Source: a bacterium
Lineage (GTDB): Bacteria; Patescibacteriota; Minisyncoccia; UBA6257; 2-01-FULL-56-20
Direction: 5' to 3'
Assembly: GCA_027310625.1 (NCBI GenBank)
Contig: DAIDAM010000002.1
Location: forward strand, 1,123-65,122
DNA: 64,000 nucleotides
Position numbers and translations under genes: made by a program. Below, piece after piece: positions 3,790 through 52,028 of this stretch. Within the stretch, counting starts at the first letter, position 1, and every line of letters starts with the position of its first letter. Under the pieces are notes generated by a model. It did no database searches. It was not told the origin of the DNA and saw only the letters and a program-made list of their open reading frames with translations.

Positions 3790-3868
3790 AGATTAGACAT
3801 TAGACATCAGTTATCAGACATCAAAAGTTATTCTAATTACTGATTACTGATGACTGATTATTATTAAC
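3790..3868. repeat. ~78-bp ATCAG/CTGAT-motif hairpin-forming intergenic repeat, copy 1
   Basis: Sequence gattagacattagacatcagttatcagacatca...ttactgattactgatgactgatta. The two arms are imperfect reverse complements. It is near-identical to 4166-4238. Confidence 0.6.
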
Positions 3869-4165: not shown

Positions 4166-4238
4166 TTTAGATTAGACATCAGACATCAGTAATCAGACAT
4201 TAGAAGTTTTAACCCTGATTTCTGATGACTGATTACTA
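4166..4238. repeat. ATCAG/CTGAT-motif intergenic repeat, copy 2
   Basis: Sequence gattagacatcagacatcagtaatcagacat...ctgatttctgatgactgattactattaac. It aligns with 3790-3868 along its whole length. Confidence 0.6.
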
Positions 4239-12863: not shown

Positions 12864-13376
12864 ATGAAATCCACCACTGTTCACGAGGACCAGCGCATAG
12901 GCATTTTCATTGACGTTCAGAATCTTTACCATTCCGCGAAAAACCTTTATCGCGGCAGGGTCAACTACAAAGAACTTCTGAAAAACCTCGTCGCCGGGCG
13001 AAAACTCATCCGTGCCGTGGCCTACGTCGTCAAAAGCGAAACCGCCGTCGGCGAAGCGGCGTTCTTCGAAGCGCTTGAAAAAGAGGGGCTGGAACTCCGC
13101 TCGAAGGATTTACAGATTTATCCCGACGGTACGAAAAAAGCCGACTGGGACGTGGGTATGGCGGTGGACGCAATCCGCATGGCGCCCTCGCTCGACTCCG
13201 TGATTCTGGTCACCGGCGACGGCGATTTCGTTCCGCTCGTGGAGTATATCAAGTGGGGAGTGGGCTCAATGGTTGAAGTCGCCGCCTTCAAAAGAAGCGC
13301 GTCGCTCAAGATTCAGGAAGCGGCCGACAGGTTTATAAATATGGAGGAGATACCGAGGATAATATTGCGCAAATAA
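12864..13376 (+). CDS. NYN domain (LabA/DUF88-like, PIN-related) protein
   Basis: 170 aa with IGIFIDVQNLY ... VILVTGDGDFVPLVE, the NYN acidic motifs. Confidence 0.7.
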   Translation: MKSTTVHEDQRIGIFIDVQNLYHSAKNLYRGRVNYKELLKNLVAGRKLIRAVAYVVKSETAVGEAAFFEALEKEGLELRSKDLQIYPDGTKKADWDVGMAVDAIRMAPSLDSVILVTGDGDFVPLVEYIKWGVGSMVEVAAFKRSASLKIQEAADRFINMEEIPRIILRK

Positions 13377-13487
13377 AAATCAGCATTAATCAGCCGCTAT
13401 CCGCATAAATCAGCGTCAAAAGTATTATTTCAGCCCTGAACGCTGATAGATGCTGATTTAGCCGATTGATGCTGATACGATGAATCA
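13377..13487. repeat. ATCAGC/GCTGAT-motif repeat cluster in the pnp 5' region
   Basis: Sequence aaatcagcattaatcagccgctatccgcataaatcagcg...gctgatagatgctgatttagccgattgatgctgatacg. The same motif grammar recurs at 27650-27770 and 40941-41023. Confidence 0.6.
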
Positions 13488-18706: not shown

Positions 18707-20851
18707 TTATTGCTCTAGAGAAGTATCTTTGCTGATATATACTTCTCTTGGTTTAGCGCCTTCGCCGGGACCGATGATGCCTTTTTCCTCCATTAAATCA
18801 AGGAGGCGCGCGGCGCGAGCATACCCGACCTTTAGGCGCCTTTGGAGAAGAGAAGCCGACGCTTTTTGCGCCTGTCTCACCACTTCCACCGCCTCATCGT
18901 ACATTTCGTCGCCGTCCTCTTCAAGCGAGTCGTCGAAAAGCGAAACGCCGCCGTTGCCGTTCCCGTTTTCTGCCGCGAATTGTATTTCTTCTTCGGCTAG
19001 AGCGGCATTGTTTTCGCGGATGAAATCTGCGACTTTTTTCGTTTCTTCTTCCGAAATATAGGCGCCCTGGATGCGTTTCGGTTTGGAAAGTTCGGAGGAG
19101 ACAAAAAGGAGGTCGCCCGCGCCGAGAAGTTTTTCTGCGCCGGAGGTGTCAATGATTGTTCTTGAATCAACCTGGCTTGCGACCTGAAGAGCGATTCTCG
19201 ACGTGATGTTTGCTTTGATTAAGCCGGTGATGATTTCCACCGACGGCCTTTGCGTCGAGAGAACGAGATGAATTCCCGTCGCCCGCGCCATCTGCGCAAG
19301 CCGGACAACAAACCCTTCCACTTCGCGTCCGTAGGAGGTCATCAGGTCGGCGAGTTCATCAACGATTATCACTATATAAGGAAGTAATTCATCGCTGTTG
19401 GCTGTTGGCTGTTGGCTGTTGGCTTTGCCATTGTAGCTCTTGATATCGCGGCTGCCGGATTTTTGCAAAAGCTCGTATCTTTTTTCCATTTCCTTTATCG
19501 CCCAGCGGAAAACGGCGAGCGCTTTTTTGTTTTCGACAATCACCGGGCTGACGAGATGCGGAATGCCTTCGTAGATGGAAAGCTCCACGCGCTTGGGGTC
19601 GAGCATAATCAGTTTCAGCGTCGTCGGCGAATTTTTATAAAGCAGCGAAACAATCAGCGACTGAATCATTATTGATTTGCCGCTGCCCGTGGAACCCGCT
19701 ATCAAAAGGTGCGGCATCTTCTCGAGGTCGGCGAAAATCGGTTCGCCGGTAACGTCGCGTCCGAGCGAAAATCCGAGAAGCCCGGAGGAATTGAATTCCG
19801 GATACGCCATCAAACTGCCGAGCCGGACGAGCGCCGCCGCTTTGTTCGGCACTTCGATGCCGACGAGAGATTTCCCGGGAATCGGCGCTTCGATTCTTAT
19901 CGGGTGAGCGGCAAGAGCGAGCGCGAGGTCTTGATTTAGCGCCGTGATCCGCGACAATTTCACCCCTTCGGCGGGCTTGAGCGTGTAGCGCGTTACCTTG
20001 GGACCGATATTTATCTCGCCCATTTCCACGGGGATGCCGAAGCTGTCCAATGTTCTTTTGATGATGTTCGCGTTCGCGCGGAGGTCGCCGGTGGTGGGTT
20101 TTTCTACGGAGGATTTCAAAAGCTCGAGTGGCGGAGGAACATAATTTGCGAAGCTCGGGCGCGGCGTTCTCCTCGCTTTTTTAACCGGCTCCGATTTCGC
20201 CGCTTCCGGCCTCGGCTCGGGAATTTCCTCTTCCTTTTCTTCCTGTTCCTTTTCGGCGGCGGCGATTTTCTTTTCTTCAACGGGCGCAAGGAGCGGCGCC
20301 CCTTCCGGCGCGGATTTCTCCGGCCATTTTATTTTCAGCGGAGCGTTCAGCGTCACGAGTATCGCCGAGACGAAAATTATCGAGTTAATTATTATCGCGG
20401 CGAGATTGCCGAAGGGGATTTTGAGCGAACCGAGAATCACTCCGAGCCAGCCGCCGTTCCCCGAAGTAGCGATATCAATTAGGCCGAGCGCCGAGAGCAT
20501 CATCAGAAAGCCGCCGAGGAGCGTCATGCCGACGAACAATTTTTTCTCCGAAATCAGGAATACGCCCGCGACCGCAAGAAGTATTGTCGGCAGGGCAAAA
20601 TATCCCAATCCCAAAAGCGTTTCAAAAATTCCGAGAAGAAATTCTCCGCCGGGACCAGCTTTATGAAATCCGGCGAGAAAAAAAATTACGGCGAGTCCCA
20701 CGAGCGCAACCGCCCAGATGCTCCGCTTCGTTTCCGGATGGAGACGGTGTTCTTTCGCGCGTTTGCCCCCGCGGTTGCCGCCGCGTTCCGCGACATCGCG
20801 CCCGTTTTTATCACCGTTGTTTCTCGCCATTTCTCTAAAAGTATATTTCAT
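18707..20851 (-). CDS. ftsK: DNA translocase FtsK
   Basis: 714 aa with N-terminal transmembrane helices, a Pro/Glu-rich linker and the FtsK/SpoIIIE ATPase (LIAGSTGSGKSIMIQSLIVSLL). Confidence 0.9.
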   Translation of the reverse strand: MKYTFREMARNNGDKNGRDVAERGGNRGGKRAKEHRLHPETKRSIWAVALVGLAVIFFLAGFHKAGPGGEFLLGIFETLLGLGYFALPTILLAVAGVFLISEKKLFVGMTLLGGFLMMLSALGLIDIATSGNGGWLGVILGSLKIPFGNLAAIIINSIIFVSAILVTLNAPLKIKWPEKSAPEGAPLLAPVEEKKIAAAEKEQEEKEEEIPEPRPEAAKSEPVKKARRTPRPSFANYVPPPLELLKSSVEKPTTGDLRANANIIKRTLDSFGIPVEMGEINIGPKVTRYTLKPAEGVKLSRITALNQDLALALAAHPIRIEAPIPGKSLVGIEVPNKAAALVRLGSLMAYPEFNSSGLLGFSLGRDVTGEPIFADLEKMPHLLIAGSTGSGKSIMIQSLIVSLLYKNSPTTLKLIMLDPKRVELSIYEGIPHLVSPVIVENKKALAVFRWAIKEMEKRYELLQKSGSRDIKSYNGKANSQQPTANSDELLPYIVIIVDELADLMTSYGREVEGFVVRLAQMARATGIHLVLSTQRPSVEIITGLIKANITSRIALQVASQVDSRTIIDTSGAEKLLGAGDLLFVSSELSKPKRIQGAYISEEETKKVADFIRENNAALAEEEIQFAAENGNGNGGVSLFDDSLEEDGDEMYDEAVEVVRQAQKASASLLQRRLKVGYARAARLLDLMEEKGIIGPGEGAKPREVYISKDTSLEQ

Positions 20852-21041
20852 CCCGCACCTTTCACAATACCACTCTGCCTACAAAGGCGATAAATCCAAG
20901 TAAGTTCTCTTTACAGATTCAATGTCATTCCAAAAGGTGCGGGATTCAAAAACATCCATTGTTGAAGCGTTAAGAATGCAAAAGGCGCCGAAGCGACGCC
21001 TTTGCTTCTTTCTCGTTTTTTTCAACTTGCAAAGTCAGCGG

Positions 21042-21281
21042 TGGATCCGGAGGGCGAGGAAAGGCACAAAGGTTTAAAACAAACAACCGCCGAGGTTCAG
21101 GGATTTGTGCTCCGTCTGAGATCATCCCCGCGATGATGAGTACGTCGGTGCGAGGGAAGAGAAAAAACTCCCGAACCATTAATGAGAATTCCCTTTTCAG
21201 GAAACCTCTACCCGCCACGTGGGTAACGAGTTTTTTTCTCGCCTGATGACGAGAGAATGCCTGTCCTGCTCTCCGGATCCA
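21042..21281. repeat. inverted-repeat-bounded structured element, an RT-less paralogue of the element upstream of the reverse transcriptase
   Basis: An 11-nt perfect inverted repeat TGGATCCGGAG (21042-21052) / CTCCGGATCCA (21271-21281). Its 52-nt core at 21184-21235 is 50/52 identical to 22496-22547. Confidence 0.5.
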
Positions 21282-21415
21282 GTCCACCTTGCCCATTAAG
21301 AGGGCTGAGGTGCAAGCTTGACCCGTCTCTGTACAGAAACGAGCTGCTTGCGGGACCTACCTAAATTTTATCATGTAAAGCTGCGCAGTCAAATTTTTTT
21401 GATAAAAAAAGAACG

Positions 21416-22354
21416 TCAGGTCGCACCCGACGTTCCCGATCGTTTCGCAATCGCCTGGCATTCCCTGAACCGGCGGACGAGCTTAAGTTCCGTCGTGTTC
21501 ATGGCTCCAAGACGACGTGCGTCATGGGTGGAATCGCGGAAAACACCCATCATCCCTGCGAGCTTTCGGTACAGGTCAACGTTTCGCTTGAAGACGATGC
21601 GCGCGAGGCCGCGGATTTTTCTTAGGTAGAACCGCGGCAGCATCATGCGTGCCGGAGAATTCACGCCGCGCCACTCGAGGCGGACGCCATTCATCGTAAT
21701 CGGCCCTTTCTTCAGGTCGGCCACCGTTGACTTCCGGTTATTGACCTGAAATCCGGCTTCTTTCATCGCTTCTCTTATAGCCGCGCGCTTCCTCCAGCCA
21801 ATCGGTTGCTTCGCCGAGAACGACAGGTCGTCTAGGTAGCGGGTATAGATAAGATGATGTTTTTCGGAGAGCTCCATCATCTTCCCGTCCATCAGTACCG
21901 CGGCGTAGACGTTGAAAAGGTCGGGGGACGCAGGAGCGCCGATGACCAACCCGCCCTTTTGCGAAAGGCAGTACTTCGCGAGGAACTCCGCAGTTTCTTC
22001 TTCTTCGCCGAAGAGTTCCGGGTTTGCCGCCGAGAGGATTTCGGTAAGTTTCCTGCCGTCAACCGATTGGTAGGCGTTCATGATATCGGTGAGATAGAAA
22101 TACCTGTTCTTCAGATGTTGTCGGACGCTTTCTCTCACCGATTTCCCCGGTTGCGCGCCGAAAGCGTAATCCATTCTTATTTTCAGCTTCCGTAATTCAC
22201 AAATCAGGCGCGCGTGAAGAATACGCATCGGCTCATTCGGGTCGCCTATTGTTCTTATTTTTTTCGTGCCGCCGAGCGGATTCTTATCGACATACCGGAA
22301 AGTTCGGAATTCCGGTTTTCCTTCAATTCCTTCAGTCAACTTGTTAAGGTACAT
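21416..22354 (-). CDS. reverse transcriptase, retron-type
   Basis: RT motifs DIMNAYQSV (motif 1), GGLVIGAPASPDLFNVY (motif 4, GAPxSP) and YTRYLDDLSFS (catalytic YxDD in the retron-style RYxDDLxFS context). The ATG at 22354 is preceded by AAGGAGG. Length is about 312 aa with no maturase or endonuclease domains. Confidence 0.8.
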   Translation of the reverse strand: MYLNKLTEGIEGKPEFRTFRYVDKNPLGGTKKIRTIGDPNEPMRILHARLICELRKLKIRMDYAFGAQPGKSVRESVRQHLKNRYFYLTDIMNAYQSVDGRKLTEILSAANPELFGEEEETAEFLAKYCLSQKGGLVIGAPASPDLFNVYAAVLMDGKMMELSEKHHLIYTRYLDDLSFSAKQPIGWRKRAAIREAMKEAGFQVNNRKSTVADLKKGPITMNGVRLEWRGVNSPARMMLPRFYLRKIRGLARIVFKRNVDLYRKLAGMMGVFRDSTHDARRLGAMNTTELKLVRRFRECQAIAKRSGTSGAT

Positions 22355-22380
22355 CCTAACCTCCTTGTAGAAATCAGCGG

Positions 22381-22598
22381 GAGACCTAGGGACGACTTGA
22401 AGCGTAGAGCCAGACAACAACCGCTGAGGTCTGGGATTCCTGCCTCGGCCCCCGTGGCGGCACGGGTGCAGGGGAGAAAAGCCAAGACCCGTATTGAGAG
22501 TTCCCTTTTCAGGAAACCTCTACCCGCCACGTGGGTGACGAGTTTTTGCTACCCTCATTGGTAGAGCCAAGCGCGCTTCTCGCCGTTCCCTAGGTCTC
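22381..22598 (-). ncRNA. candidate retron msr/msd non-coding RNA: a 12-nt perfect inverted repeat bracketing ~195 nt immediately upstream of the RT
   Basis: GGAGACCTAGGGA at 22380-22392 and TCCCTAGGTCTC at 22587-22598. The RT-proximal copy lies 27 nt upstream of the RT ATG. The internal sequence is GC-rich with several hairpins (CCCGUG-CCGC-CACGGG; CUCUACC...GGGUAGAG). Confidence 0.4.
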
Positions 22599-22772
22599 GG
22601 TCCCGCCTTGCCCTGTAGCCGCAGGGCGGAGGAGCGAGAGATACAACTTCTCGCCGGGACACGTCTATATTTTTTCTGATTCTTCAACAAAAGTCAATTT
22701 AAGCAACAGAAATTGTCGGACAGAAAGTAGTCCAATCGTTCACCCTCATATATTATAATATGAGAACTTCCA

Positions 22773-24124: not shown

Positions 24125-24261
24125 TATGCCCCGTAAGAAACAGCGAGAAAATATAAATATTTTTGAGCTAATGTTACGGGCAACGGCACAAAAGTTGCTT
24201 CAGATAGCTGAAAAGTCGAACCAATGTTCACAAAAAATATTTAATTTCTTACGGGGATGCC
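24125..24261 (+). mobile_element. hairpin-ended element of the CCCCGTAAGAAA / TTTCTTACGGGG family (empty copy)
   Basis: Left end TATGCCCCGTAAGAAA (24125-24140) and right end TTTCTTACGGGGATGCC (24245-24261). Roughly the first 45 nt and last 25 nt match the copy at 32631-32772. The right end supplies the ATG of the downstream gene. Confidence 0.45.
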
Positions 24262-24751
24262 CGAATTTTTCAACAGCTCATTGGGACTTAAAATGACCGT
24301 CCGCCAGGTGGCGGACGAAATTGTCCGCTTTATGAAAGCGGAGCCGAAGCGGAAATATAAAATCATGGTCGGCACGGATTCCGAGCGCCTGATGGACGGA
24401 CGCGCCGATTTTGTGACGGCGGCGGTTGTCCACCGCGTCGGCAACGGCGGACGCTATTTTTGGCGGCGCGCGCAGCTCGGAAAATTTCATACCCTCCGCG
24501 ACCGCATCATCCGCGAGGTCTTGATTTCCATTGACCTCGGCAAGGGAATACTTACCGAATTGAGGAATCTTTCCGATAAATCCGGCGCGATGCCCGAGTG
24601 GGATTTTGAAATTCACGCCGACGTCGGCGAAAACGGCCCCACGAAAGCGATGATTCAGGAAGTCGTCGGCATGATTCGCGCGCACGATTTCGAACCGATT
24701 ACGAAGCCGGCGAGCTACGCGGCGTCCAACGTCGCCGACCGCCACGTGTAG
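24257..24751 (+). CDS. YkuK/DUF458-like protein (RNase H-like fold)
   Basis: 164 aa with YKIMVGTDSE, which resembles the DUF458 core as I remember it. I did not run a search. Confidence 0.45.
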   Translation: MPEFFNSSLGLKMTVRQVADEIVRFMKAEPKRKYKIMVGTDSERLMDGRADFVTAAVVHRVGNGGRYFWRRAQLGKFHTLRDRIIREVLISIDLGKGILTELRNLSDKSGAMPEWDFEIHADVGENGPTKAMIQEVVGMIRAHDFEPITKPASYAASNVADRHV

Positions 24752-27649: not shown

Positions 27650-27770
27650 GCCGTAGAATATCGGCATAAATCAGCCCGCATCGGCATTTATCAGCGTTAA
27701 AAGTTCGGCGACATAGTTCCACGCTGATTTATGCTGATTGTTGCGGATAGATGCTGATAAATAAACTAAA
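27650..27770. repeat. ATCAGC/GCTGAT-motif repeat cluster in the clpB 5' region
   Basis: Sequence cggcataaatcagcccgcatcggcatttatcagcg...gctgatttatgctgattgttgcggatagatgctgataaat. Confidence 0.6.
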
Positions 27771-32317: not shown

Positions 32318-32772
32318 TATGCCCCGTAAGAAATAGTTATGTTTTATGTCTATATTTTACAAAGTGAAAAAGACGGCAAACTATATGCAGGGTTCACATC
32401 CGACCTCAGAAAAAGATTACTAAAACATAACTCCGGCAAAGTATTTTCAACGAAGTCGCGCAGGCCACTCAAATTAATTTACTGTGAAGTATGCACCAAT
32501 GAGCAAGATGCAAAACAACGAGAAAAATATTTTAAGGCGGGGGCTGGCAAGAAATTCATCAAAAACAGACTGAGAAATTATTTTCAAGGCCATATTATGA
32601 CATCAACAAAAATATTTTAGTTTCTTACGGGGTATGCCCCGTAAGAAATGGCGAGAAAATGAAAAATATTTTTGAGCAAAGATTAAGGAATATCAAATAT
32701 GAAATCGATAACTGAATATTGTAAGGTCGGGCTGATGTCAACAAAAATATTTTAGTTTCTTACGGGGTATGC
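32318..32772 (+). mobile_element. composite hairpin-element locus: CCCCGTAAGAAA inverted repeats precisely bracketing a GIY-YIG gene, followed by an empty tandem copy
   Basis: Left half TATGCCCCGTAAGAAATAG (32318-32336). Full 12-bp-stem hairpin TTTCTTACGGGG-TATG-CCCCGTAAGAAA (32621-32648) directly after the GIY-YIG stop. Right half TTTCTTACGGGGTATGCC (32755-32772) supplies the ATG of the next gene. Confidence 0.5.
32339..32620 (+). CDS. GIY-YIG nuclease family protein (small YhbQ/URI-domain type)
   Basis: 93 aa with FYVYILQSEKDGKLYAGFTSDLRKRLLKHN, the GIY...YIG motifs with the conserved R and N. Confidence 0.8.
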   Translation: MFYVYILQSEKDGKLYAGFTSDLRKRLLKHNSGKVFSTKSRRPLKLIYCEVCTNEQDAKQREKYFKAGAGKKFIKNRLRNYFQGHIMTSTKIF

Positions 32773-33509
32773 CAAAAACCATTCAGGAGGAATTCCTTTA
32801 TAAGAAGGTTTATGAATTCAGCTACGCCACTTTGAGAATATCCTCATCGGCAAAGAACAGGGAAGTTGCCGAAATTCTCGAAGGCAGGGCATTTTCGCTG
32901 CTCAATTCCGTTTTGACTGCCGATTACAGTAAAACGAGCGACACAGTTAATTCCATAATCAGTATTTCGGGCTTGTTGGTTGACGGCGGATTTCTTCATC
33001 CTGCAAACAAAGAAATACTTCAGAGGGAATCGGAAAGCATCCATCTCGCGATAAAAGCTTTGCCGAAGAAAAAAGAAGTTCTCCAAGATCTTGGTCTCGG
33101 AAAAATATTTTCAAAATCGCCATTGCCGAAACGGCAAATTGTCGATAAACCCGTGAAGCAGGTCCAATCGGCAATGGGCAATGGCGAATCGGAAATTTCC
33201 GATAAAACCGTTGCCGATAAAATTTCCGATGGAATTTCCGATAAAAACTCTTTTAAATACGAATCGGAAAAACGGCAATCGGCAATAATCGGCAAATTGC
33301 GACAAGTTGAGAATTGCCGATTAAATGATCTACAAGCACTTTTCCCGAACATAAGCGACAGGACGCTTCGTTACGATATAGAATCGCTTATCTTAAAAGG
33401 CGTGGTTGAGAGGGTGGGAAGCAGGAGAAACAGCGTTTACCGGCTTAAAAACACTTTCGGAACGGCCATAGAACTGCCGGCTTCTTCCTCGCCGGTCCGG
33501 ACGGCGTAA
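32769..33509 (+). CDS. hypothetical protein with a C-terminal winged-helix DNA-binding-like segment
   Basis: 246 aa. The C-terminus NDLQALFPNISDRTLRYDIESLILKGVVERV resembles a DeoR/wHTH fold, and the N-terminus weakly resembles the four-helix-bundle family. Confidence 0.45.
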   Translation: MPKTIQEEFLYKKVYEFSYATLRISSSAKNREVAEILEGRAFSLLNSVLTADYSKTSDTVNSIISISGLLVDGGFLHPANKEILQRESESIHLAIKALPKKKEVLQDLGLGKIFSKSPLPKRQIVDKPVKQVQSAMGNGESEISDKTVADKISDGISDKNSFKYESEKRQSAIIGKLRQVENCRLNDLQALFPNISDRTLRYDIESLILKGVVERVGSRRNSVYRLKNTFGTAIELPASSSPVRTA

Positions 33510-40940: not shown

Positions 40941-41023
40941 CGCCGATTGATGCCGATACGGCTGATTTGTGCTGATTAAAAATACATCGGCATCCATCAG
41001 CTTAAATCCGCATAAATCAGCGG
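40941..41023. repeat. ATCAGC/GCTGAT-motif repeat cluster
   Basis: Sequence gccgattgatgccgatacggctgatttgtgctgatt...catcagcttaaatccgcataaatcagcggc. Confidence 0.6.
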
Positions 41024-45904: not shown

Positions 45905-45959
45905 ATTTTGTTTGAAAATTGAACAAAGTGAAAATTTTCATTACAAAATCTTAACCGAG

Positions 45960-46122
45960 CACATAAATTTATGAATATACCAAACAATAGAGAATTAAGT
46001 AATCGCAGCACAAACCAGCCATATTATATTAATCGTTTGATTAAATTTATGTGCTCGGTGCTCAATTTTGAATACCGCTCGGTCTGCGGTATAACTACCT
46101 TGCCCTCGCGGGCAAAATTACC
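45960..46122 (+). promoter_or_regulatory. pilus-gene leader module, copy 1 (interrupted variant)
   Basis: ACCGAGCACATAAATTTATG...AAATTTATGTGCTCGGTGCTCAATTTTG...CGCTCGGTCTGCGGTATAACTACCTTGCCCTCGCGGGCAAAATTACC then ATG. It shares its 3' ~75 nt with copies 2 and 3. Confidence 0.5.
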
Positions 46123-46695
46123 ATGCCTCTTCCTGAACAAATAGCAAATCGGACGGCGCACGGACCGATAGGAACACCGGGATGGTCAGGCCAGCTTCTG
46201 ATGTTCAGCGGCACCGTTTTTTTCATAAGCTTGGCGGTTTATCTCGGGATCGCTTACGGGTACAAACCCTATCTTGAAAGGCAGGTTGCGATTCTTGACG
46301 AGCAGATAAAAAGCTACACCAGGCAAATTACTCCCGACGAACAGGAAAAACTCATTTCCTTTTACTCGCAGGTGGCGAACCTTAACGAAATCCTCAAAAG
46401 CCGGTTTACTCCCTCGCAGATATTCGGCTGGCTTGAAAAAAACACCGGTGCGAACATTTATTACAACGGGTTCGGTTTTCTCCTTGCCGATTATCAAGTC
46501 AATCTTTCCGGCATTTCAAAAACAGTGGACGGTTTTTCAAAACAGATGGTTTTATTCCAGAATAATCCTGCCGTTGAAAGGGCGTCCATCAACAGCTTTT
46601 CGTCGGCGGGAGGAAACCTTTGGCAGTTTAACGTTTCTCTTTTCCTGAATAAAGACGCCTTGAATTCAGGAGTCACGGTTCAACAAGAACAATGA
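46123..46695 (+). CDS. PilN-like type IV pilus biogenesis protein (bitopic)
   Basis: 190 aa with one N-terminal transmembrane helix. The call relies on its position after pilM. Confidence 0.5.
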   Translation: MPLPEQIANRTAHGPIGTPGWSGQLLMFSGTVFFISLAVYLGIAYGYKPYLERQVAILDEQIKSYTRQITPDEQEKLISFYSQVANLNEILKSRFTPSQIFGWLEKNTGANIYYNGFGFLLADYQVNLSGISKTVDGFSKQMVLFQNNPAVERASINSFSSAGGNLWQFNVSLFLNKDALNSGVTVQQEQ

Positions 46696-47285: not shown

Positions 47286-47576
47286 ATGGCTATAGTCTTT
47301 GAAGAAAAGACAAACACAGGCGCAATAACGACCTTCATCGTTTGGGTGATTATTCTTGGGGTAATAGCCGCAAGCGTCTATTACGTCTTTTTCAAAGAAC
47401 CGCAGCTTGTGGAATTCACTTCTTCTGCTTCTTTCAAAAATATCCAGCAGCTTTCAAAAATCACCATCAACTCCGCGGAACTCGTTAATAATCCCCAGTT
47501 CGCGGCCCTTAAGCAGTACATCACCGTTTCGCCGCTGGAAGGCGCGGGAAAGTCAAATCCATTTTTGGGGTTCTGA
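47286..47576 (+). CDS. small bitopic protein of the pilus cluster, hypothetical
   Basis: 96 aa with one transmembrane helix. Confidence 0.35.
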   Translation: MAIVFEEKTNTGAITTFIVWVIILGVIAASVYYVFFKEPQLVEFTSSASFKNIQQLSKITINSAELVNNPQFAALKQYITVSPLEGAGKSNPFLGF

Positions 47577-47730
47577 AGGTCTTTGCCTAAATTTTGGAGC
47601 ATGAAATGCAAACAAAATTTATCGCAAACACCTTTACCGAGCACATAGGTCTATTATGTGCTCGGTGCTCAATTTTGCAGCCGCTCGGGCTGCGTTATAA
47701 AATTAACTTGCCCTCGCGGGCAAAATTGGC
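47577..47730 (+). promoter_or_regulatory. pilus-gene leader module, copy 2 (in front of pilB)
   Basis: About 150 nt near-identical to 50660-50813. Contains the hairpin GAGCACATA-GGTCTAT-TATGTGCTC, a candidate -35/-10 pair (TTGCAG, 17 nt, TAAAAT) and the hairpin TTGCCC-TCGC-GGGCAA abutting the ATG. Confidence 0.5.
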
Positions 47731-49461
47731 ATGACCACAGATCAACTTCTCGGCGAACTTCAGAAGCGGAAACTTCTCACCGAAGAGGTTTCGAACAAAA
47801 TCAGGAGGGAATCGCTTCTTTCGGGGCGCTCCGCGGAAGACATAATTTTTTCTCAGCGGCTTGTTGAAAACGAGCAAGTCGCAAAGCTCAAGAGCGAGGT
47901 TTTAAAAATACCGTATCAAAAGGTGGATGCTTCCAAACTTGACGAAAAACTTTTTGAGTTAATACCCGAGGAAACAGCAAGGACTTACGGAGCAGTTCCC
48001 ATTTCCCAGAGCGACAATCTTTTGGTTGTCGGGATGCTGAGACCCGACGACCCGAAAGCGCAGGAGGCGCTGAAGTTCATCGCTAGGCGCCGCCGTTTGA
48101 ATCTCGGAGTTTACGTGATTTCATATTCCGACTGGCAGGATGTTTTGAGAAGATATTCTCCATATAAAAGCGAAGTGGAAGCTGCTGTGCGCTCGCTTGA
48201 TATTAAGTCGGGCGGCGCCGGCGGCAGGCGACTCGTCGGACTTGAGGAAACGGCTTCAACCAAGCTGGAAGACGCGCCGATTATAAGAATAGTCGCGAAG
48301 ACCTTCAGCGAAGCCGTTCAAAAAGGCGCTTCCGACGTTCACATCGAACCGCTTGAAAATTATTTGAGAGTGAGATTCAGGATAAACGGGCAGCTTGAAG
48401 AAGAAATTGCTTTGCCGGCGGAACTTTCGCAATCAGTAGTTTCGCGCGTGAAGGTTATTTCCAATCTCAAGATAGACGAGGCAAGAGTGCCCCAGGACGG
48501 ACGTTTCCGGACGAGAGTTTTTGACAGAGAAATAGATTTCCGCGTTTCCACGTTTCCGACTCCGCTCGGCGAAAAAGTCGCCATTCGCGTTCTCGACCCC
48601 TCCACCGGGCTAAAAGATTTCGGACAACTCGGCCTTGAAGGGAAAAATCTTTCAACAATAAAAGAAGGACTTTCAAAACCGTTTGGTATGATACTTCTCA
48701 CCGGCCCTACCGGCTCCGGAAAAACAACTACCCTTTACGCGATTCTCCAAACCCTCAACAAAGAAAATATAAACATTCTTAGTTTGGAAGACCCCGTGGA
48801 GTATCTCGTTTCCGGAATAAACCAGTCGCAGGTCAGACCGGAGATAGGATACGATTTTGCTTCCGGATTGAGAGAAATGTTGCGGCAGGACCCGGACATA
48901 ATAATGGTCGGCGAGATAAGGGATAACGAAACAGCGGGGCTTGCGGTCCACGCCGCGCTCACGGGACATATAGTTCTTTCAACCTTGCATACCAATAATG
49001 CCATCGGCGTCATTCCGCGGCTGATTGACATGAAAGTTGAGCCGTTTCTTCTGCCGCCTTCACTCAACCTGATGGTTTCACAGCGCCTCGTCGGCCGCCT
49101 TTGTCAAAATTGCAGGAAGAAAGAGACGGCGCCGCAGGAAATGCAAAGAATAATCAAAAAAGCACTGAACGATTTGCCGTCCGAAATAACGTCCGCCTAC
49201 AAAGAACCGTACGAGATTTACAAAAGCGAGGGGTGTCCCAAATGTCAGGGGAAGGGAATTGTCGGCAGGATAGCGCTTTTCGAGGTTTTCAAAATGACGA
49301 ACGAGCTTCAAAAAATAATAGTTTCCAGCCCCACCGTCCAGCTCATTTCCGAGGAAGCAAAGAGACAGGGAATGATAACACTGCACCAAGACGGCATAAT
49401 AAAAGCGCTCTCCGGTCTTGTAAAAATCGAGGAGGTGATTAAGGAAACGGAAGAATCGTGA
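47731..49461 (+). CDS. pilB: type IV pilus assembly ATPase PilB (GspE family)
   Basis: 576 aa with Walker A LLTGPTGSGKTTTL, a tetracysteine motif CQNC...CPKC and a GspE N-domain. Confidence 0.9.
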   Translation: MTTDQLLGELQKRKLLTEEVSNKIRRESLLSGRSAEDIIFSQRLVENEQVAKLKSEVLKIPYQKVDASKLDEKLFELIPEETARTYGAVPISQSDNLLVVGMLRPDDPKAQEALKFIARRRRLNLGVYVISYSDWQDVLRRYSPYKSEVEAAVRSLDIKSGGAGGRRLVGLEETASTKLEDAPIIRIVAKTFSEAVQKGASDVHIEPLENYLRVRFRINGQLEEEIALPAELSQSVVSRVKVISNLKIDEARVPQDGRFRTRVFDREIDFRVSTFPTPLGEKVAIRVLDPSTGLKDFGQLGLEGKNLSTIKEGLSKPFGMILLTGPTGSGKTTTLYAILQTLNKENINILSLEDPVEYLVSGINQSQVRPEIGYDFASGLREMLRQDPDIIMVGEIRDNETAGLAVHAALTGHIVLSTLHTNNAIGVIPRLIDMKVEPFLLPPSLNLMVSQRLVGRLCQNCRKKETAPQEMQRIIKKALNDLPSEITSAYKEPYEIYKSEGCPKCQGKGIVGRIALFEVFKMTNELQKIIVSSPTVQLISEEAKRQGMITLHQDGIIKALSGLVKIEEVIKETEES

Positions 49462-49585: not shown

Positions 49586-50659
49586 ATGCCCACGCCACAG
49601 GAACAACTGAATGACCTTCTTATAACCACCGCAAAACAGAACGCTTCCGACCTTCATTTGGCCGTTGGACGGCGCCCGACCCTCCGCGTTGACGGAGTTC
49701 TCGTTCCTATTCAAAAAGAACCGCAGCTTACCCGAGAAGCAGTTGAGGGCGTAATTTCCGCGCTCATAACTCCCGAACAAAAAAAAGTTTTTCTTGAAAA
49801 AAAGCAACTGGACTTCGCTTATAGTTTTGAAGACAAGGCGAGATTCCGCGTCAACGTTTATTTCCAGCGCGGCTATATGTCGGCGTCGCTGCGCTTGATA
49901 CCCGCGAGGATAAGAACGGTAGAAGAATTGAATCTCGCGCCGATACTTCACGAGTTCCCGAAGCTTTCGCAGGGCTTCGTTCTCATTGTCGGTCCGGCGG
50001 GACACGGGAAATCGACTACGCTCGCCGCCATGCTTGATGAGGTGAACCACAACCGCACCGACCACATTGTTACAATAGAAGACCCGATTGAATACATTTT
50101 TACGCAGGACAGATGCATAGTTTCGCAGAGGGAAGTCGGGGCCGACGCCTTGAGTTTCCACTCGGCATTGAGAACTGTTTTGCGTCAGGACCCCGACGTT
50201 ATCATGATAGGAGAAATGCGCGACACAATTTCAATCGCAACAGCGATGACCGCGGCGGAAACGGGCCACCTCGTTTTTTCCACACTTCACACCAATTCCG
50301 CTTCGCAGACGATAGACAGAGTCATTGATTCCTTCCCGGCGGAACAGCAGGGACAAATTGTTTCTCAGCTTGCCTCCACGCTTGTCGGCATAATTTCCCA
50401 GCGTCTCATTCCGCGTCTTTCCGGAGGAAGAATTCCGGCGCTTGAGATAATGATAACGAACCCCGCCGTCAGGAACCTCATCCGTGAAAGGAAAATCTAT
50501 CAGATTGACCTTGTGATAGAGACGAGCTTGCAGGAAGGAATGCTGACGATGAACCGTTCTCTTGCAAACCTCGTAAAAACGAAGGAAATTTCGCTTGAAA
50601 ACGCGGAGCTCTATTCCCCGAATCCGGCGGAATTGAGGATACTGCTGGAGAGGATGTAA
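49586..50659 (+). CDS. pilT: twitching motility ATPase PilT
   Basis: 357 aa with Walker A LIVGPAGHGKSTT and the PilT-type AIRNLIRE motif. Confidence 0.9.
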   Translation: MPTPQEQLNDLLITTAKQNASDLHLAVGRRPTLRVDGVLVPIQKEPQLTREAVEGVISALITPEQKKVFLEKKQLDFAYSFEDKARFRVNVYFQRGYMSASLRLIPARIRTVEELNLAPILHEFPKLSQGFVLIVGPAGHGKSTTLAAMLDEVNHNRTDHIVTIEDPIEYIFTQDRCIVSQREVGADALSFHSALRTVLRQDPDVIMIGEMRDTISIATAMTAAETGHLVFSTLHTNSASQTIDRVIDSFPAEQQGQIVSQLASTLVGIISQRLIPRLSGGRIPALEIMITNPAVRNLIRERKIYQIDLVIETSLQEGMLTMNRSLANLVKTKEISLENAELYSPNPAELRILLERM

Positions 50660-50813
50660 ATGTCTTTGCCTAAATTTTGGAGCATGAAATGCGAACAAAA
50701 TTTATCGCAAACACCTTTACCGAGCACATAGGTCTATTATGTGCTCGGTGCTCAATTTTGCAGCCGCTCGGGCTGCGTTATAAAATTAACTTGCCCTCAC
50801 GGGCAAAATTGGC
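50660..50813 (+). promoter_or_regulatory. pilus-gene leader module, copy 3 (in front of pilC)
   Basis: Differs from copy 2 at only about 3 positions. Confidence 0.5.
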
Positions 50814-52028
50814 ATGAAGTTTAAATACCAGGCAAAAACAAGAGAAGGAGAAAACCAGGTTGGATTCGTGGAAGCGCCTTCAAGAGACGTCGCCGCGAGC
50901 ATTCTTTCGAGCCACAATCTCTTCATTCTGACGCTTAATGAGGTGGGCAAAGAAGGGTTCTTTCAAAGGTTTGAAAGTTATTTTTCAAAACGCCTTAAAA
51001 AGAGCGAACTCGTTATCTTCACAAGACAGCTTGCAATGCTTCTTGAAGCAAGGGTGCCTCTCAACACGAGTTTAAAAGCGATTCATGAGCAGTCGCAAAA
51101 TCCCATTTTGAAGGAAGCGGCGCTTGAAATAGCGGAAGATATAGACGCGGGACTTCCCTTTTCGCAGGCGATAGAGCGCCAGCCGGAAATTTTTTCCGGG
51201 TTCTTCTCAAGCATGGTGCGTTCCGCAGAGATCACCGGCAATCTTGAAAACGTGATGAACTTCCTTGCGGACTACCTTGAACGCGAGTATTCGCTTCAAA
51301 AAAGAGTGGAGTCGGCGCTGATTTATCCGGGAATGATTATAGGCCTTTTCATAGTTGTTTCATTCATTCTCGTGGCTTTCGTCATTCCCCAGATCAGTCC
51401 GATATTCAGAGACGCAGGGGTAAATCTTCCTTTTTTCGTAATGATACTTGTCGGCGTAGGTGCTTTTGTGGGCCAGTGGTGGCCCGTTGTCGCTCTCGGA
51501 TTATTTTTCCTTGCTCTTTTTGCTATAGATTACTTTCAAACGCCGGAGGGCAAAGCCCTGAAAGATGAACTTAAAATAAAACTTCCGATGCTGAAAAGCA
51601 TTTATCTCCCCCTTACAATAACGAGAATCGCCAATTCGGCGTCAATGCTTTTGAGAGGCGGCGTCCCGATTGTGCAATCGCTTGAAATAATCGGGGAAAC
51701 CGCGGACAACGTCGTTTACAAAGAAATAATGCACCAGATTGCGGAAGAAGTTCGCCAAGGTCAGCAAATTTCGGCTTCCGCATCAAAATACCCTGAATAT
51801 TTTCCCTCAACCGTCACGCAAATGATAGCGGTAGGCGAAGCCGCTGGTCAGCTTGAGCAGACATTTTCAAGAATATCCGTTTTTTACGGAAGGGAGGCCG
51901 ACTCGGTGATAAATAACATCGTTGAGCTTATCCAGCCGGTGCTTATCATCGGCGTCGGAATACTCGTCGGACTTCTTTTTTCTTCCATTCTTCTTCCGAT
52001 ATACCAGCTCATCGGGACAATACGTTAA
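50814..52028 (+). CDS. pilC: type IV pilus inner-membrane platform protein PilC (GspF family)
   Basis: 404 aa with two GspF repeats and three transmembrane segments. Confidence 0.85.
   Translation: MKFKYQAKTREGENQVGFVEAPSRDVAASILSSHNLFILTLNEVGKEGFFQRFESYFSKRLKKSELVIFTRQLAMLLEARVPLNTSLKAIHEQSQNPILKEAALEIAEDIDAGLPFSQAIERQPEIFSGFFSSMVRSAEITGNLENVMNFLADYLEREYSLQKRVESALIYPGMIIGLFIVVSFILVAFVIPQISPIFRDAGVNLPFFVMILVGVGAFVGQWWPVVALGLFFLALFAIDYFQTPEGKALKDELKIKLPMLKSIYLPLTITRIANSASMLLRGGVPIVQSLEIIGETADNVVYKEIMHQIAEEVRQGQQISASASKYPEYFPSTVTQMIAVGEAAGQLEQTFSRISVFYGREADSVINNIVELIQPVLIIGVGILVGLLFSSILLPIYQLIGTIR

What the first reader, a model, noticed from the sequence alone, without database searches (positions are those of the whole stretch)
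21042..21281. Second, RT-less copy of the inverted-repeat-bounded element on the other side of the RT gene, inside the ftsK upstream region
Seen: an 11-nt perfect inverted repeat TGGATCCGGAG / CTCCGGATCCA (21042-21052 and 21271-21281) brackets about 218 nt. Inside it, 21184-21235 is 50/52 identical to 22496-22547, which lies inside the candidate msr/msd. The only differences are two A/G transitions, and both cores have the same orientation. The two units have different inverted-repeat words (a GGATCC core versus a CCTAGG core) but the same architecture. Inference: this could be a duplicated orphan ncRNA, a MITE-like derivative of the retron RNA, or terminal direct repeats of one larger retroelement spanning 21.0-22.6 kb. 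Its position 190 nt upstream of the ftsK start could also affect ftsK expression.
Basis: seen in the sequence. Interest (0 to 1): 0.6.

Follow-up and report, generated by a model that had tools for sequence, protein, structure and literature searches.

The report
Second RNA partner gene of a retron-like RT
The element is real: it is a second, separately transcribed copy of a structured non-coding RNA that accompanies a retron-type reverse transcriptase found only in ultra-small (CPR/Patescibacteria) bacteria. I could not find this RT–RNA family described anywhere, it has no partner effector gene, and several other genomes also carry two RNA genes per enzyme.

Summary
The 11-nt inverted repeat and the 50/52 shared core are present at the stated coordinates.

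Unit A (about 21035-21359, minus strand) is homologous to unit B (22374-22662) along its whole length, including a sigma-70-like promoter. Identity is mosaic: about 50% in most segments, but 96% in a two-hairpin core, 14/15 in a "post" motif and 7/7 in a "tail" motif. Both core differences turn a G·U pair into G-C.

The RT (21416-22354, minus strand) belongs to a Patescibacteria-specific, retron-clade family of about 300-aa proteins, roughly 500 clusters at 50% identity. In about 46 of 91 related sources the same RNA lies next to the RT, in 53 of 54 hits on the RT strand, either upstream or downstream.

Four other loci carry two full units per RT. No conserved effector gene, Rfam family or paper was found.

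Best reading: unit A is a second functional RNA partner or template of the same RT. The MITE, LTR-like, DGR and ftsK-regulator readings are not supported. What the RT makes from these RNAs is inferred, not shown.

The parts
21365..21392 (-). Unit A promoter-like site: TTGACT, 16-nt spacer, TAAAAT, with TG before the -10
   Evidence: 10/12 match to consensus. Unit B has a homologous TTGACT at the equivalent place.
21282..21359 (-). Unit A 5' leader with two hairpins (includes GGGCAAGG)
   Evidence: It is 54% identical to the unit B leader.
21258..21281 (-). Unit A P1 5' arm.
   Evidence: (I15).
21236..21257 (-). Unit A variable H1 region. CGAG at 21238-21241 is the 5' strand of helix P2.
21210..21231 (-). 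Unit A hairpin H2 (ACUCGUUAC CCAC GUGGCGGGU)
   Evidence: Covariation; model hits. The 21225 difference is a U·G pair here and C-G in unit B.
21184..21208 (-). Unit A hairpin H3 (GAGGUUUCCU GAAA AGGGAAUUCUC)
   Evidence: The 21188 difference is a G·U pair here and G-C in unit B.
21097..21182 (-). Unit A H4: long variable hairpin with a pyrimidine-rich 5' side. It is the candidate template (msd-like) arm.
   Evidence: The base helix covaries across units (GGUUC:GAACC, GAUUC:GAAUC, GGUCA:UGACC, GGUCU:AGACC).
21082..21096 (-). Unit A 'post' motif ACCUCGGCGGUUGUU. Its 5' half pairs with P2 and its 3' half pairs with the tail.
21042..21068 (-). Unit A P1 3' arm.
21035..21041 (-). Unit A 'tail' CCGCUGA, which is complementary to the post motif (pseudoknot)
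20972..21010 (-). Hairpin followed by UUUUGCAUUCUU after unit A; a weak terminator candidate
   Evidence: z -1.4. flags the same palindrome on the plus strand.
21416..22354 (-). Retron-type reverse transcriptase gene, 312 aa, with YLDD motif
21409..21437 (-). Intrinsic-terminator hairpin plus U6 at the RT stop codon. It separates the RT transcript from unit A.
   Evidence: -18.3 kcal/mol, z -5.2.
22374..22662 (-). Unit B, the RT-proximal copy. Leader 22599-22662; P1 arms 22574-22598 and 22381-22404; H2 22522-22543; H3 22496-22520; H4 22431-22494; post 22416-22430; tail 22374-22380.
   Evidence: (I18).
22669..22697 (-). Unit B promoter-like site: TTGACT, 17-nt spacer, AAAAAT

Best explanation
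Unit A is a functional second gene for the structured non-coding RNA that works with the retron-type RT encoded between the two units.

Shown:
- Both units lie on the RT strand, each behind its own TTGACT-type promoter, and a strong terminator hairpin sits at the RT stop codon between them.
- Both adopt one conserved fold. A long closing stem P1 (the inverted repeat) leads through helix P2 to a junction. The junction carries two short conserved hairpins (H2, H3) and a long variable hairpin (H4). A 3' tail (CCGCUGA) pairs back to the conserved 'post' motif (ACCUCAGCGG) and forms a pseudoknot.
- Between the two units the stems have changed sequence but still pair, while H2-H3, post and tail have stayed almost identical.

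Inferred:
- H2-H3, post and tail are the parts read by the protein, so one RT can use both RNAs.
- By homology with retron RTs, the RNA is the primer and template for cDNA synthesis, with H4 as the template arm. Two RNAs with different H4 and P1 would then give two different cDNA products from one enzyme.
- The system works without a dedicated effector protein.

The position next to ftsK is incidental.
For: Homology and mosaic conservation:
- The units align along their whole length, promoter included.
- Identity by segment is: core 96%, post 14/15, tail 7/7, all other segments 38-61%.
- Both core substitutions switch a G·U pair to G-C.

Strand and transcription signals:
- Promoter-like sites precede both units, and a terminator hairpin sits at the RT stop codon.
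- 53 of 54 model hits lie on the RT strand.
- Many pairs are G·U, which would be A·C mismatches on the other strand.

Structure:
- H2/H3: 87.6% of cells paired and 17 of 19 pairs with compensatory changes on an independent MAFFT alignment; 0 of 500 shuffles reached this, and slid controls gave 45-56%. On 40 sequences, 92.8% paired and 19 of 19 pairs compensated.
- P1: found at the same place in 33 units with unrelated sequences, and always followed by CGCUG.
- post:tail: 77% paired against 26-47% for slid controls, with compensatory variants in L062, L002a, L004b and L053.
- P2: 20 of 33 units against 2.7±1.6 in shuffles.

RT:
- The best profile and fold matches are retron RTs: Ec83 7e-29 and Ec86 6e-28, and the top 14 Foldseek hits.
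- A retron-like N-V-x-R-H motif has an invariant H80, and G223 in RT7 is invariant (definition from PMC7736814).

Recurrence:
- Two complete units per RT also occur in L051, L001, L002 and L062. L002 and L062 show terminator-promoter pairs between the units.
- In L051 the cores are again more alike (82%) than the rest.

Independent assembly: L106 confirms the order unit B - RT - unit A.
Against: - There are no expression data, and no cDNA or msDNA has been observed.
- No conserved 'opposing G' pair was seen at the inner end of P1.
- No Rfam family, including any retron RNA family in release 15, matches.
- No conserved effector gene was found, unlike classified retrons.
- The RNA lies downstream of the RT in many relatives, which to my knowledge is atypical for retrons.
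- A post:tail pseudoknot is not a retron feature that I know of.
- One relative (L032/L033) lacks H4 and post yet keeps an intact RT.
- In L001, L002 and L062 the two cores are only 61-64% identical, so a shared recognition surface is not always kept at the sequence level.
- The hairpin after unit A is a weak terminator.
Confidence: 0.62

Rival explanations
1. Unit A is a decaying leftover of a tandem duplication of the RNA-RT module. The second RT has been lost and unit A no longer functions.
For: - Most related loci manage with one unit.
- The hairpin after unit A is a weak terminator.
- An 8-nt CAAGTTGA follows both tails. It could be a remnant of the RT 5' end, or it could be chance.
Against: - After divergence to about 50% identity, every helix still pairs through compensatory change: P1, the H4 base, and P2 (CGAG:CUCG in unit A against UGAGG:CCUCA in unit B).
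- The core, post and tail remain 93-100% identical.
- The unit A promoter matches consensus better than the unit B promoter does.
- Two intact units recur in four other loci.
Confidence: 0.13
2. The family's RNA is not a retron-type msr-msd. It is used in another way. One option is that the 3' tail, paired to the post motif, primes cDNA synthesis from the RNA's own 3' end. Another is that helix P2 holds the two ends of a template together for repeated or rolling reverse transcription, as in DRT2, or for homopolymer synthesis, as in DRT9. Unit A would still be a second RNA partner, but the product would not be msDNA.
For: - The system is an RT plus RNA only, with no effector, like DRT2 and DRT9 as I recall them.
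- The conserved tail lies directly 3' of P1 and pairs with post.
- P2 closes the H2-H3-H4 domain.
- A pyrimidine-rich tract sits at the 5' side of H4.
- The RNA gene can lie on either side of the RT.
- No opposing G pair was found.
Against: - The RT is much closer to retron RTs than to Drt2. The PDB profile gives 1e-28 against 1e-5, and NCBIfam Drt2 scores 25.8 bits against a cutoff of 390.
- In RT-proximal units the tail runs on into the RT mRNA, so a free 3' end would need processing.
Confidence: 0.2
3. Units A and B are the terminal direct repeats (LTR-like ends) of one mobile retroelement spanning about 21.0-22.7 kb, or unit A is a MITE-like non-autonomous derivative.
For: - Direct repeats flank the RT in this window (D2).
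- RT modules sit in varied genomic contexts.
- One relative (L011) shows an insertion footprint, a 143-nt duplication of the miaA 5' end.
Against: - Most loci have a single unit.
- The other two-unit loci have both units on one side of the RT.
- In L011 the duplicated sequence is host miaA, not the RNA unit.
- Only two copies occur in 64 kb, and none lies away from an RT in about 0.5 Mb of related loci, apart from weak noise hits.
- The units carry promoters and conserved internal helices typical of an RNA gene.
Confidence: 0.03
4. Unit A is a cis-acting leader or regulator of ftsK.
For: - It lies 191 nt upstream of ftsK on the same strand.
- The terminator after it is weak.
Against: - Homologous units elsewhere sit next to unrelated genes, and ftsK is not a conserved neighbour.
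- ftsK has its own promoter-like site at 20867-20840.
- The element is defined by its link to the RT.
Confidence: 0.04
5. The two cores are a DGR template/variable repeat pair, suggested by the A-to-G differences.
For: - The only two differences are A/G on the plus strand.
- DGRs dominate CPR RTs (PMC8632793).
Against: - On the RT strand the differences are U/C, not changes at adenines.
- Both differences fall in base pairs, G·U against G-C.
- No coding target gene contains either copy.
- The RT matches retron models far better than the DGR RT, which ranks only 25th in Foldseek.
Confidence: 0.01

Closest known systems
Retrons (RT plus msr-msd ncRNA, e.g. Ec86/Eco1, Ec83, Ec78)
   Same: - The RT is nearest to retron RTs in sequence profile and in fold.
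- It is about 300 aa.
- It has an N-V-x-R-H motif with an invariant H and an invariant G in RT7 (compared with PMC7736814).
- The RNA lies next to the RT on the same strand and is closed by terminal inverted repeats. These enclose short conserved hairpins and one long variable hairpin, which is the msr/msd topology described in PMC7736814.
   Different: - Scores fall below every retron family cutoff (89 against 235 bits), and the best PADLOC retron model gives only 91 bits.
- There is no conserved effector gene.
- The RNA gene has its own promoter and can lie downstream of the RT or occur twice.
- There are extra conserved elements: helix P2 and a post:tail pseudoknot.
- No Rfam match was found.
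- The family appears restricted to Patescibacteria. All source-given names and most genome records say so; four records are titled 'uncultured Gammaproteobacteria'.
- msDNA has not been demonstrated.
DRT2 and DRT9 (UG2 / UG28 defence RTs with an ncRNA)
   Same: A two-component RT plus structured ncRNA module with no separate effector protein. As I recall, in DRT2 a helix brings the two ends of an internal RNA domain together.
   Different: - The RT is not of the UG/Abi clade (Drt2 25.8 bits against cutoff 390; 1e-5 in PDB).
- The protein is about 100 aa shorter.
- There is no sequence or Rfam similarity between the RNAs.
Group II intron RT / maturase
   Same: The RT fold is close: GsI-IIC gives TM 0.66. 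The RT is flanked on both sides by structured RNA in this window.
   Different: - The flanking RNAs are two copies of one unit, not intron domains I-VI, and no group II intron Rfam hit was found.
- The RT has no maturase/X or En domain, and the profile E-value is 1e-8 against 1e-28 for retrons.

Membership tests
Retron | RT belongs to the retron/retron-like RT clade | tested here: met
   - PADLOC: the 25 hits listed, of 50, are all retron RT models; the best is RT_VI at 91 bits.
- PDB profile: Ec83 7e-29 and Ec86 6e-28, against group II intron RT 1e-8 and Drt2 1e-5.
- Foldseek: the top 14 hits are retron RTs.
- Caveat: the score is below NCBIfam retron cutoffs (89.6 against 235), so the RT sits outside every curated subtype. 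No phylogeny was run.
Retron | Region X NAXXH motif and region Y VTG triplet in the RT (PMC7736814) | tested here: inconclusive
   In alignment A2 the consensus K-N-V-x-R-H lies just before the motif holding catalytic D90. H80 is invariant and N is nearly invariant; the window protein reads SVRQH. VTG is replaced by (I/M)-N-G with invariant G223. The most conserved residues (H and G) are kept, but the exact motifs are not.
Retron | Contiguous ncRNA whose terminal inverted repeats (a1/a2) pair and enclose 1-3 short msr hairpins and a long msd hairpin | tested here: met
   P1 closes H1, H2, H3 and the long variable H4 in 33 units, and H2/H3 covary. The assignment of msr and msd is by analogy only.
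Retron | ncRNA upstream of the RT and co-transcribed with it | tested here: not met
   Unit B fits this. Unit A lies downstream, behind a terminator and its own promoter. At least 17 related loci have the RNA only downstream of the RT.
Retron | Conserved branching G, its opposing G, and production of 2'-5' branched msDNA | not testable with these tools
   No conserved G pair was seen at the inner end of P1, but the true inner end is ambiguous. Biochemistry is needed.
Retron | Associated effector gene (tripartite system, types I-XIII) | tested here: not met
   Neighbour ORFs (≥80 aa) in the held flanks (up to ±3 kb) of about 100 loci were clustered. The best non-RT cluster occurs in only 8 loci and looks like a permease-like multi-pass membrane protein (judged by eye, not scanned); the next occurs in 4 and looks like a small heat-shock (Hsp20-like) protein, also judged by eye. 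ORFs under 80 aa were not examined.
Retron | Similarity of the RNA to any described retron RNA family | tested here: not met
   No Rfam 15 family matched at E ≤ 1 in the window region or E ≤ 0.1 in 8 related loci. Only RNase P RNA, tmRNA and tRNAs were found.
UG/Abi defence RTs with ncRNA (DRT2, DRT3, DRT9) | RT belongs to the UG/Abi clade | tested here: not met
   NCBIfam gives Drt2 25.8 bits (cutoff 390) and Drt3a 19.3 bits (cutoff 200). PDB profile gives Drt2 1e-5.
Diversity-generating retroelement | Template and variable repeats differing at adenines, with the variable repeat inside a target gene, plus a DGR-type RT | tested here: not met
   The differences are U/C on the RT strand and lie in base pairs. 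Neither copy sits in a target ORF. The RT is retron-like.
MITE / dispersed repeat | Many dispersed copies bounded by terminal inverted repeats and target-site duplications, independent of strand and neighbour | tested here: not met
   There are 2 copies in 64 kb. All confident copies in about 0.5 Mb of related loci are RT-adjacent and on the RT strand. The whole genome was not available.

The most novel reading that the evidence does not exclude
The window exposes an undescribed, Patescibacteria-wide class of effector-less retron-like systems. A roughly 300-aa RT is served by an independently transcribed, pseudoknotted ncRNA gene (P1, P2, H2-H4, post:tail). That gene can sit on either side of the RT and, in several lineages, exists as two diverged paralogues that keep the same protein-facing core. 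One enzyme would then be programmed by two RNAs to make two different cDNAs. This 'one RT, two templates' arrangement has not been reported for retrons or DRTs, and it occurs in organisms with tiny genomes and few known defence systems.
Probability: 0.35. Interest if true: 0.8.

Novelty: new variant of a known kind. Interest (0 to 1): 0.66.

Why it matters
- Retrons and related RT-ncRNA systems are studied both as phage defence and as genome-editing tools. Every well-described type couples one RT to one upstream ncRNA, usually with an effector.
- Here a large RT family (about 500 clusters at 50% identity), apparently confined to CPR bacteria, carries a new covariation-supported RNA architecture and has no effector. 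It shows natural cases of two RNA genes per RT.
- If both RNAs are used, this is a natural example of re-targeting one RT with alternative templates. It would also give a compact RT-RNA pair to test.
- It raises the question of what an effector-less retron does in a roughly 1-Mb symbiont genome.
- Even on the cautious reading, the work supplies a new structured-RNA family, with a model and alignments, that current annotation misses.

Tried and rejected
- blastn of the two units against 29 related loci found nothing. The RNA diverges too fast, so nhmmer and covariance models were needed.
- blastn of upstream against downstream flanks in each locus found only the L011 miaA duplication, the shared ends of L012 and three short, weak matches.
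- RNAalifold on just the two window units mis-aligned P1 and missed it. P1 was recovered with a dedicated stem search.
- Rfam searches gave no family for the RNA. A U4 snRNA hit at E 0.26 is noise.
- Complementarity between units A and B, or between either unit and the rest of the window, was checked as a possible target or antisense role. Only chance-level short matches appeared.
- No conserved neighbouring protein was found.
- No retron-style opposing G pair was seen at the inner end of P1; the result is inconclusive.
- The viral contig scan returned one 28%-identical relative, so the family is not phage-borne.
- Six full-text literature searches found no description of this family or of natural two-ncRNA retrons. 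UG38 is a CPR RT group named in PMC9226505. I did not test against it; I set it aside on size alone, because the UG/Abi RTs I recall are much longer than about 300 aa, and because the best matches here are retron models.
- The 108-aa ORF 20970-21296 that overlaps unit A has no Pfam hit and has no counterpart in unit B. It was rejected as a gene.

Full report

Yes. TGGATCCGGAG (21042-21052) and CTCCGGATCCA (21271-21281) are present (I15 extends the arms to 14 nt at 93%). The core 21184-21235 matches 22496-22547 at 50/52 in direct orientation (D2, 71). The two differences are 21188 A / 22500 G and 21225 A / 22537 G. A 36-nt exact part of the core occurs only twice in the window, against 0 expected by chance.

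The inverted repeat alone is not remarkable, because the window holds 54 inverted repeats of at least 11 nt within 300 nt. Its significance comes from its position.

An independent assembly (L106, seen in 3 samples) is 100% identical to 21195-22530. It breaks on both sides inside the shared exact repeat. This confirms the order unit B - RT - unit A.

**2. The two units are homologous throughout and lie on the minus strand.**

An alignment of 21000-21420 with 22340-22720 shows homology well beyond the inverted repeats, promoter region included. On the minus strand each unit is preceded by a sigma-70-like site:
- TTGACT, 16-nt spacer, TAAAAT with an upstream TG, at 21392-21365.
- TTGACT, 17-nt spacer, AAAAAT, at 22697-22669.

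The RT gene (21416-22354, minus strand, 312 aa, YLDD) ends in a strong hairpin plus U6 at 21437-21409 (-18.3 kcal/mol, z -5.2). Unit A therefore has its own promoter behind the RT terminator. It is followed by a weaker hairpin with a U-rich tail at 20972-21010.

Identity between the units is mosaic:

| Segment | Identity, unit A vs unit B |
|---|---|
| Promoter | 61% |
| Leader | 54% |
| P1 5' arm | 52% |
| H1 | 48% |
| Core (H2-H3) | 51/53 = 96% |
| H4 | 56% |
| post | 14/15 |
| Spacer | 38% |
| P1 3' arm | 53% |
| Tail | 7/7 |

Both core substitutions change a G·U pair in unit A into G-C in unit B, one in H2 and one in H3. They preserve structure and are not DGR-like adenine mutagenesis.

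**3. The RT.**

- Pfam finds RVT_1.
- The PADLOC hits listed are all retron RT models, the best being RT_VI at 91 bits.
- NCBIfam gives retron_St85 89.6 bits against a cutoff of 235, and Drt2 25.8 bits against 390.
- A profile of 25 family members hits retron RTs first in the PDB: Ec83 7e-29, Ec86 6e-28, and Ec78, Ec67 and Eco8. Group II intron RT scores 1e-8 and Drt2 1e-5.
- An AlphaFold model (pLDDT 93.4) has retron RTs as its top 14 Foldseek hits (TM 0.61-0.73), followed closely by GsI-IIC.
- The alignment shows a K-N-V-x-R-H motif with invariant H80 just before the catalytic-Asp motif, and an invariant G223 where retrons have VTG. These correspond to regions X and Y that define retron RTs in PMC7736814.
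- Homologues are all about 300 aa. The names that sources give them are all Parcubacteria, Patescibacteria or plain 'bacterium' MAGs, with the nearest at 55% identity. Most genome records carry Patescibacteria-group titles as well, although four are titled 'uncultured Gammaproteobacteria'.
- An exhaustive profile search finds 501 clusters (50% identity) at E ≤ 1e-30.
- Only one weak relative (28% identity) occurs in viral contigs.

**4. The RNA is a conserved structured RNA family linked to this RT.**

I fetched 29 genome loci and 69 metagenome loci around RT relatives, plus neighbourhoods of the closest homologues. nhmmer and then covariance models R1 and R2 of the H2-H3 core found the element next to the RT in about 46 of 91 sources. 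Of 54 hits, 53 are on the RT strand.

Covariation is strong. On an independent MAFFT alignment of 15 sequences, 87.6% of cells pair and 17 of 19 pairs show compensatory changes. None of 500 shuffles reached this, and slid controls gave 45-56%. On 40 model-aligned sequences, 92.8% of cells pair and 19 of 19 pairs are compensated. The frequent G·U pairs fix the strand.

A stem search then showed a long closing helix P1 in 33 units. It is 10-19 bp in its outer part, differs in sequence in every unit, spans about 150-380 nt (about 170-310 in most units), and has a purine-rich 5' arm.

Directly 3' of P1 comes a conserved tail (C)CGCUG(A). About 16-56 nt (mostly 16-40) 5' of the P1 3' arm lies a conserved 'post' motif (R)ACCUCAGCGG.

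- **post:tail pseudoknot.** Post and tail are complementary and covary: CAACG:CGUUG in L062a/b, UUAGCG:CGCUAA in L002a, CUCAGCU:AGCUGAG in L004b and CAGCA:UGCUG in L053. Pairing is 77% against 26-47% for slid controls. The order P1a, post, P1b, tail makes this a pseudoknot or an alternative hairpin.
- **Helix P2.** The 5' half of post pairs with a YUGAGG motif 5-11 nt upstream of H2. This occurs in 20 of 33 units against 2.7±1.6 in shuffles. Variants include GAAG:CUUC, GAGA:UCUC, and CGAG:CUCG in unit A.
- **Junction.** P2 closes a junction bearing H2, H3 and H4. The base of H4 covaries too.
- **Overlap.** P2 and the pseudoknot both use the UCAG of post. They either stack or alternate, and I cannot tell which.

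No Rfam family matches.

**5. Position and copy number across the family.**

The unit lies upstream of the RT in many loci (for example L030, L032, L034, L037, L041, L048, L018, L038). It lies downstream in at least 17 others (for example L010, L063, L072, L066, L009, L069, L073, L012, L059, L064).

Two complete units, each with its own P1, post and tail, occur in L051, L001 and L002 (tandem, upstream) and in L062 (tandem, downstream). In L002 and L062 the units are separated by a terminator and a promoter-like site.

In L051 the two cores are 82% identical while the rest is 47-60%, which is the same mosaic as in the window. In L001, L002 and L062 the cores are 61-64% identical but still fold.

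The window is the only case found where the two units flank the RT.

**6. Context.**

No protein family is a conserved neighbour. The best non-RT cluster is in 8 of about 100 loci and, by eye, is a permease-like membrane protein. ftsK and the HAD/PMM gene are therefore incidental neighbours.

Several modules sit beside stable RNA genes: RNase P RNA in L030, L032 and L036; tmRNA in L041; a tRNA in L063.

**7. Interpretation.**

Shown:
- Unit A is a paralogous, structurally intact, promoter-bearing copy of an RT-linked structured RNA, on the RT strand.
- The family and its architecture are conserved and covary.
- Two-unit loci recur.

Inferred:
- The near-identical core, post and tail are the surfaces read by the one RT, so both RNAs are its partners.
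- By homology with retron RTs and by topology (a closing stem, short hairpins and a long variable hairpin), the RNA is a primer-template and H4 is the template arm. Two units would then give two cDNAs.

The alternatives on the chemistry are tail-primed synthesis or DRT2/DRT9-like synthesis. They remain open because the system lacks an effector, has a pseudoknot, and places its RNA gene flexibly.

The MITE, LTR-like, DGR and ftsK-leader readings are rejected for the reasons given under the rival explanations.

**8. Novelty.**

I found no paper describing retrons or retron-like RT-ncRNA systems in Patescibacteria, or natural retrons with two ncRNA genes. Reviews state that DGRs dominate CPR RTs (PMC8632793).

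I file this as a new variant of a known kind: retron-like in its RT and in RNA topology, but failing the retron tests for an effector and for RNA placement, and with extra RNA elements.

Noticed in passing
L011:2268-2408 and L011:3954-4096: A 143-nt direct repeat (86% identical) is a duplicated 5' end of the downstream gene. From its sequence (MQKLIVILGPTASGKSDIAVALAKKFEG...) I take this gene to be miaA. The repeat flanks a segment holding a gene fragment, a promoter, the ncRNA unit and the RT. It looks like an insertion or recombination footprint of the module.
   Followed up: partly
L030:2172-2564; L041:4403-4756; L063:218-291: RT-RNA modules often sit right beside stable RNA genes: RNase P RNA in L030, L032 and L036; tmRNA in L041; a tRNA in L063. 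This may be an insertion preference or shared RNA-gene neighbourhoods.
   Followed up: no
L032:2850-2990 (same in L033): This relative's ncRNA keeps P1, P2 5' strand, H2, H3 and the tail but lacks H4 and the post motif, while its RT is intact. It is either a deletion variant or evidence that H4 and post are dispensable.
   Followed up: partly
window 20850-20862 and 20933-20945: A perfect 13-nt inverted repeat (ATCCCGCACCTTT / AAAGGTGCGGGAT) spans the ftsK promoter-like site and first ATG. It may be a regulatory hairpin or operator for ftsK, and it is unrelated to the RNA unit.
   Followed up: no
window 47569-47734 and 50652-50817 (also 45954-46125): A 166-nt direct repeat (96% identical) carries a hairpin ACCGAGCACATA...TATGTGCTCGGT and a motif CTTGCCCTCGCGGGCAAAATT, with a third partial copy near 46090. 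Its nature is unknown.
   Followed up: no
window 24125-24262, 32318-32357, 32598-32773: There are repeated direct and inverted copies of TTTCTTACGGGG(T)ATGCC with A/T-rich flanks. This is a small dispersed intergenic repeat family.
   Followed up: no
window 13371-13415, 27652-27696, 40978-41022; and 3794-3826, 4173-4205, 56092-56124: Two further short repeat families are present: ATCGGCATAAATCAGC-type and TAGACATCAGACATCAG-type.
   Followed up: no
window about 21023-21030, and inside RT codons 5-7 near 22335-22342: The octamer CAAGTTGA follows the tail of unit A and also lies at the start of the RT ORF after unit B. It could be a remnant of a duplicated RT 5' end, or it could be chance.
   Followed up: no
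L012:1-34 and L012:1582-1615: The two ends of this 1.6-kb contig share 34 identical bases. The cause may be a circular assembly or a repeat-induced artefact around an RT plus ncRNA module.
   Followed up: no
window 21209-21225 and 22521-22537 (plus strand): Read on the plus strand, the H2 palindrome followed by the T-run looks like an intrinsic terminator. It could stop antisense transcription into the units, though it is probably just a by-product of the A-rich linker before H2.
   Followed up: no
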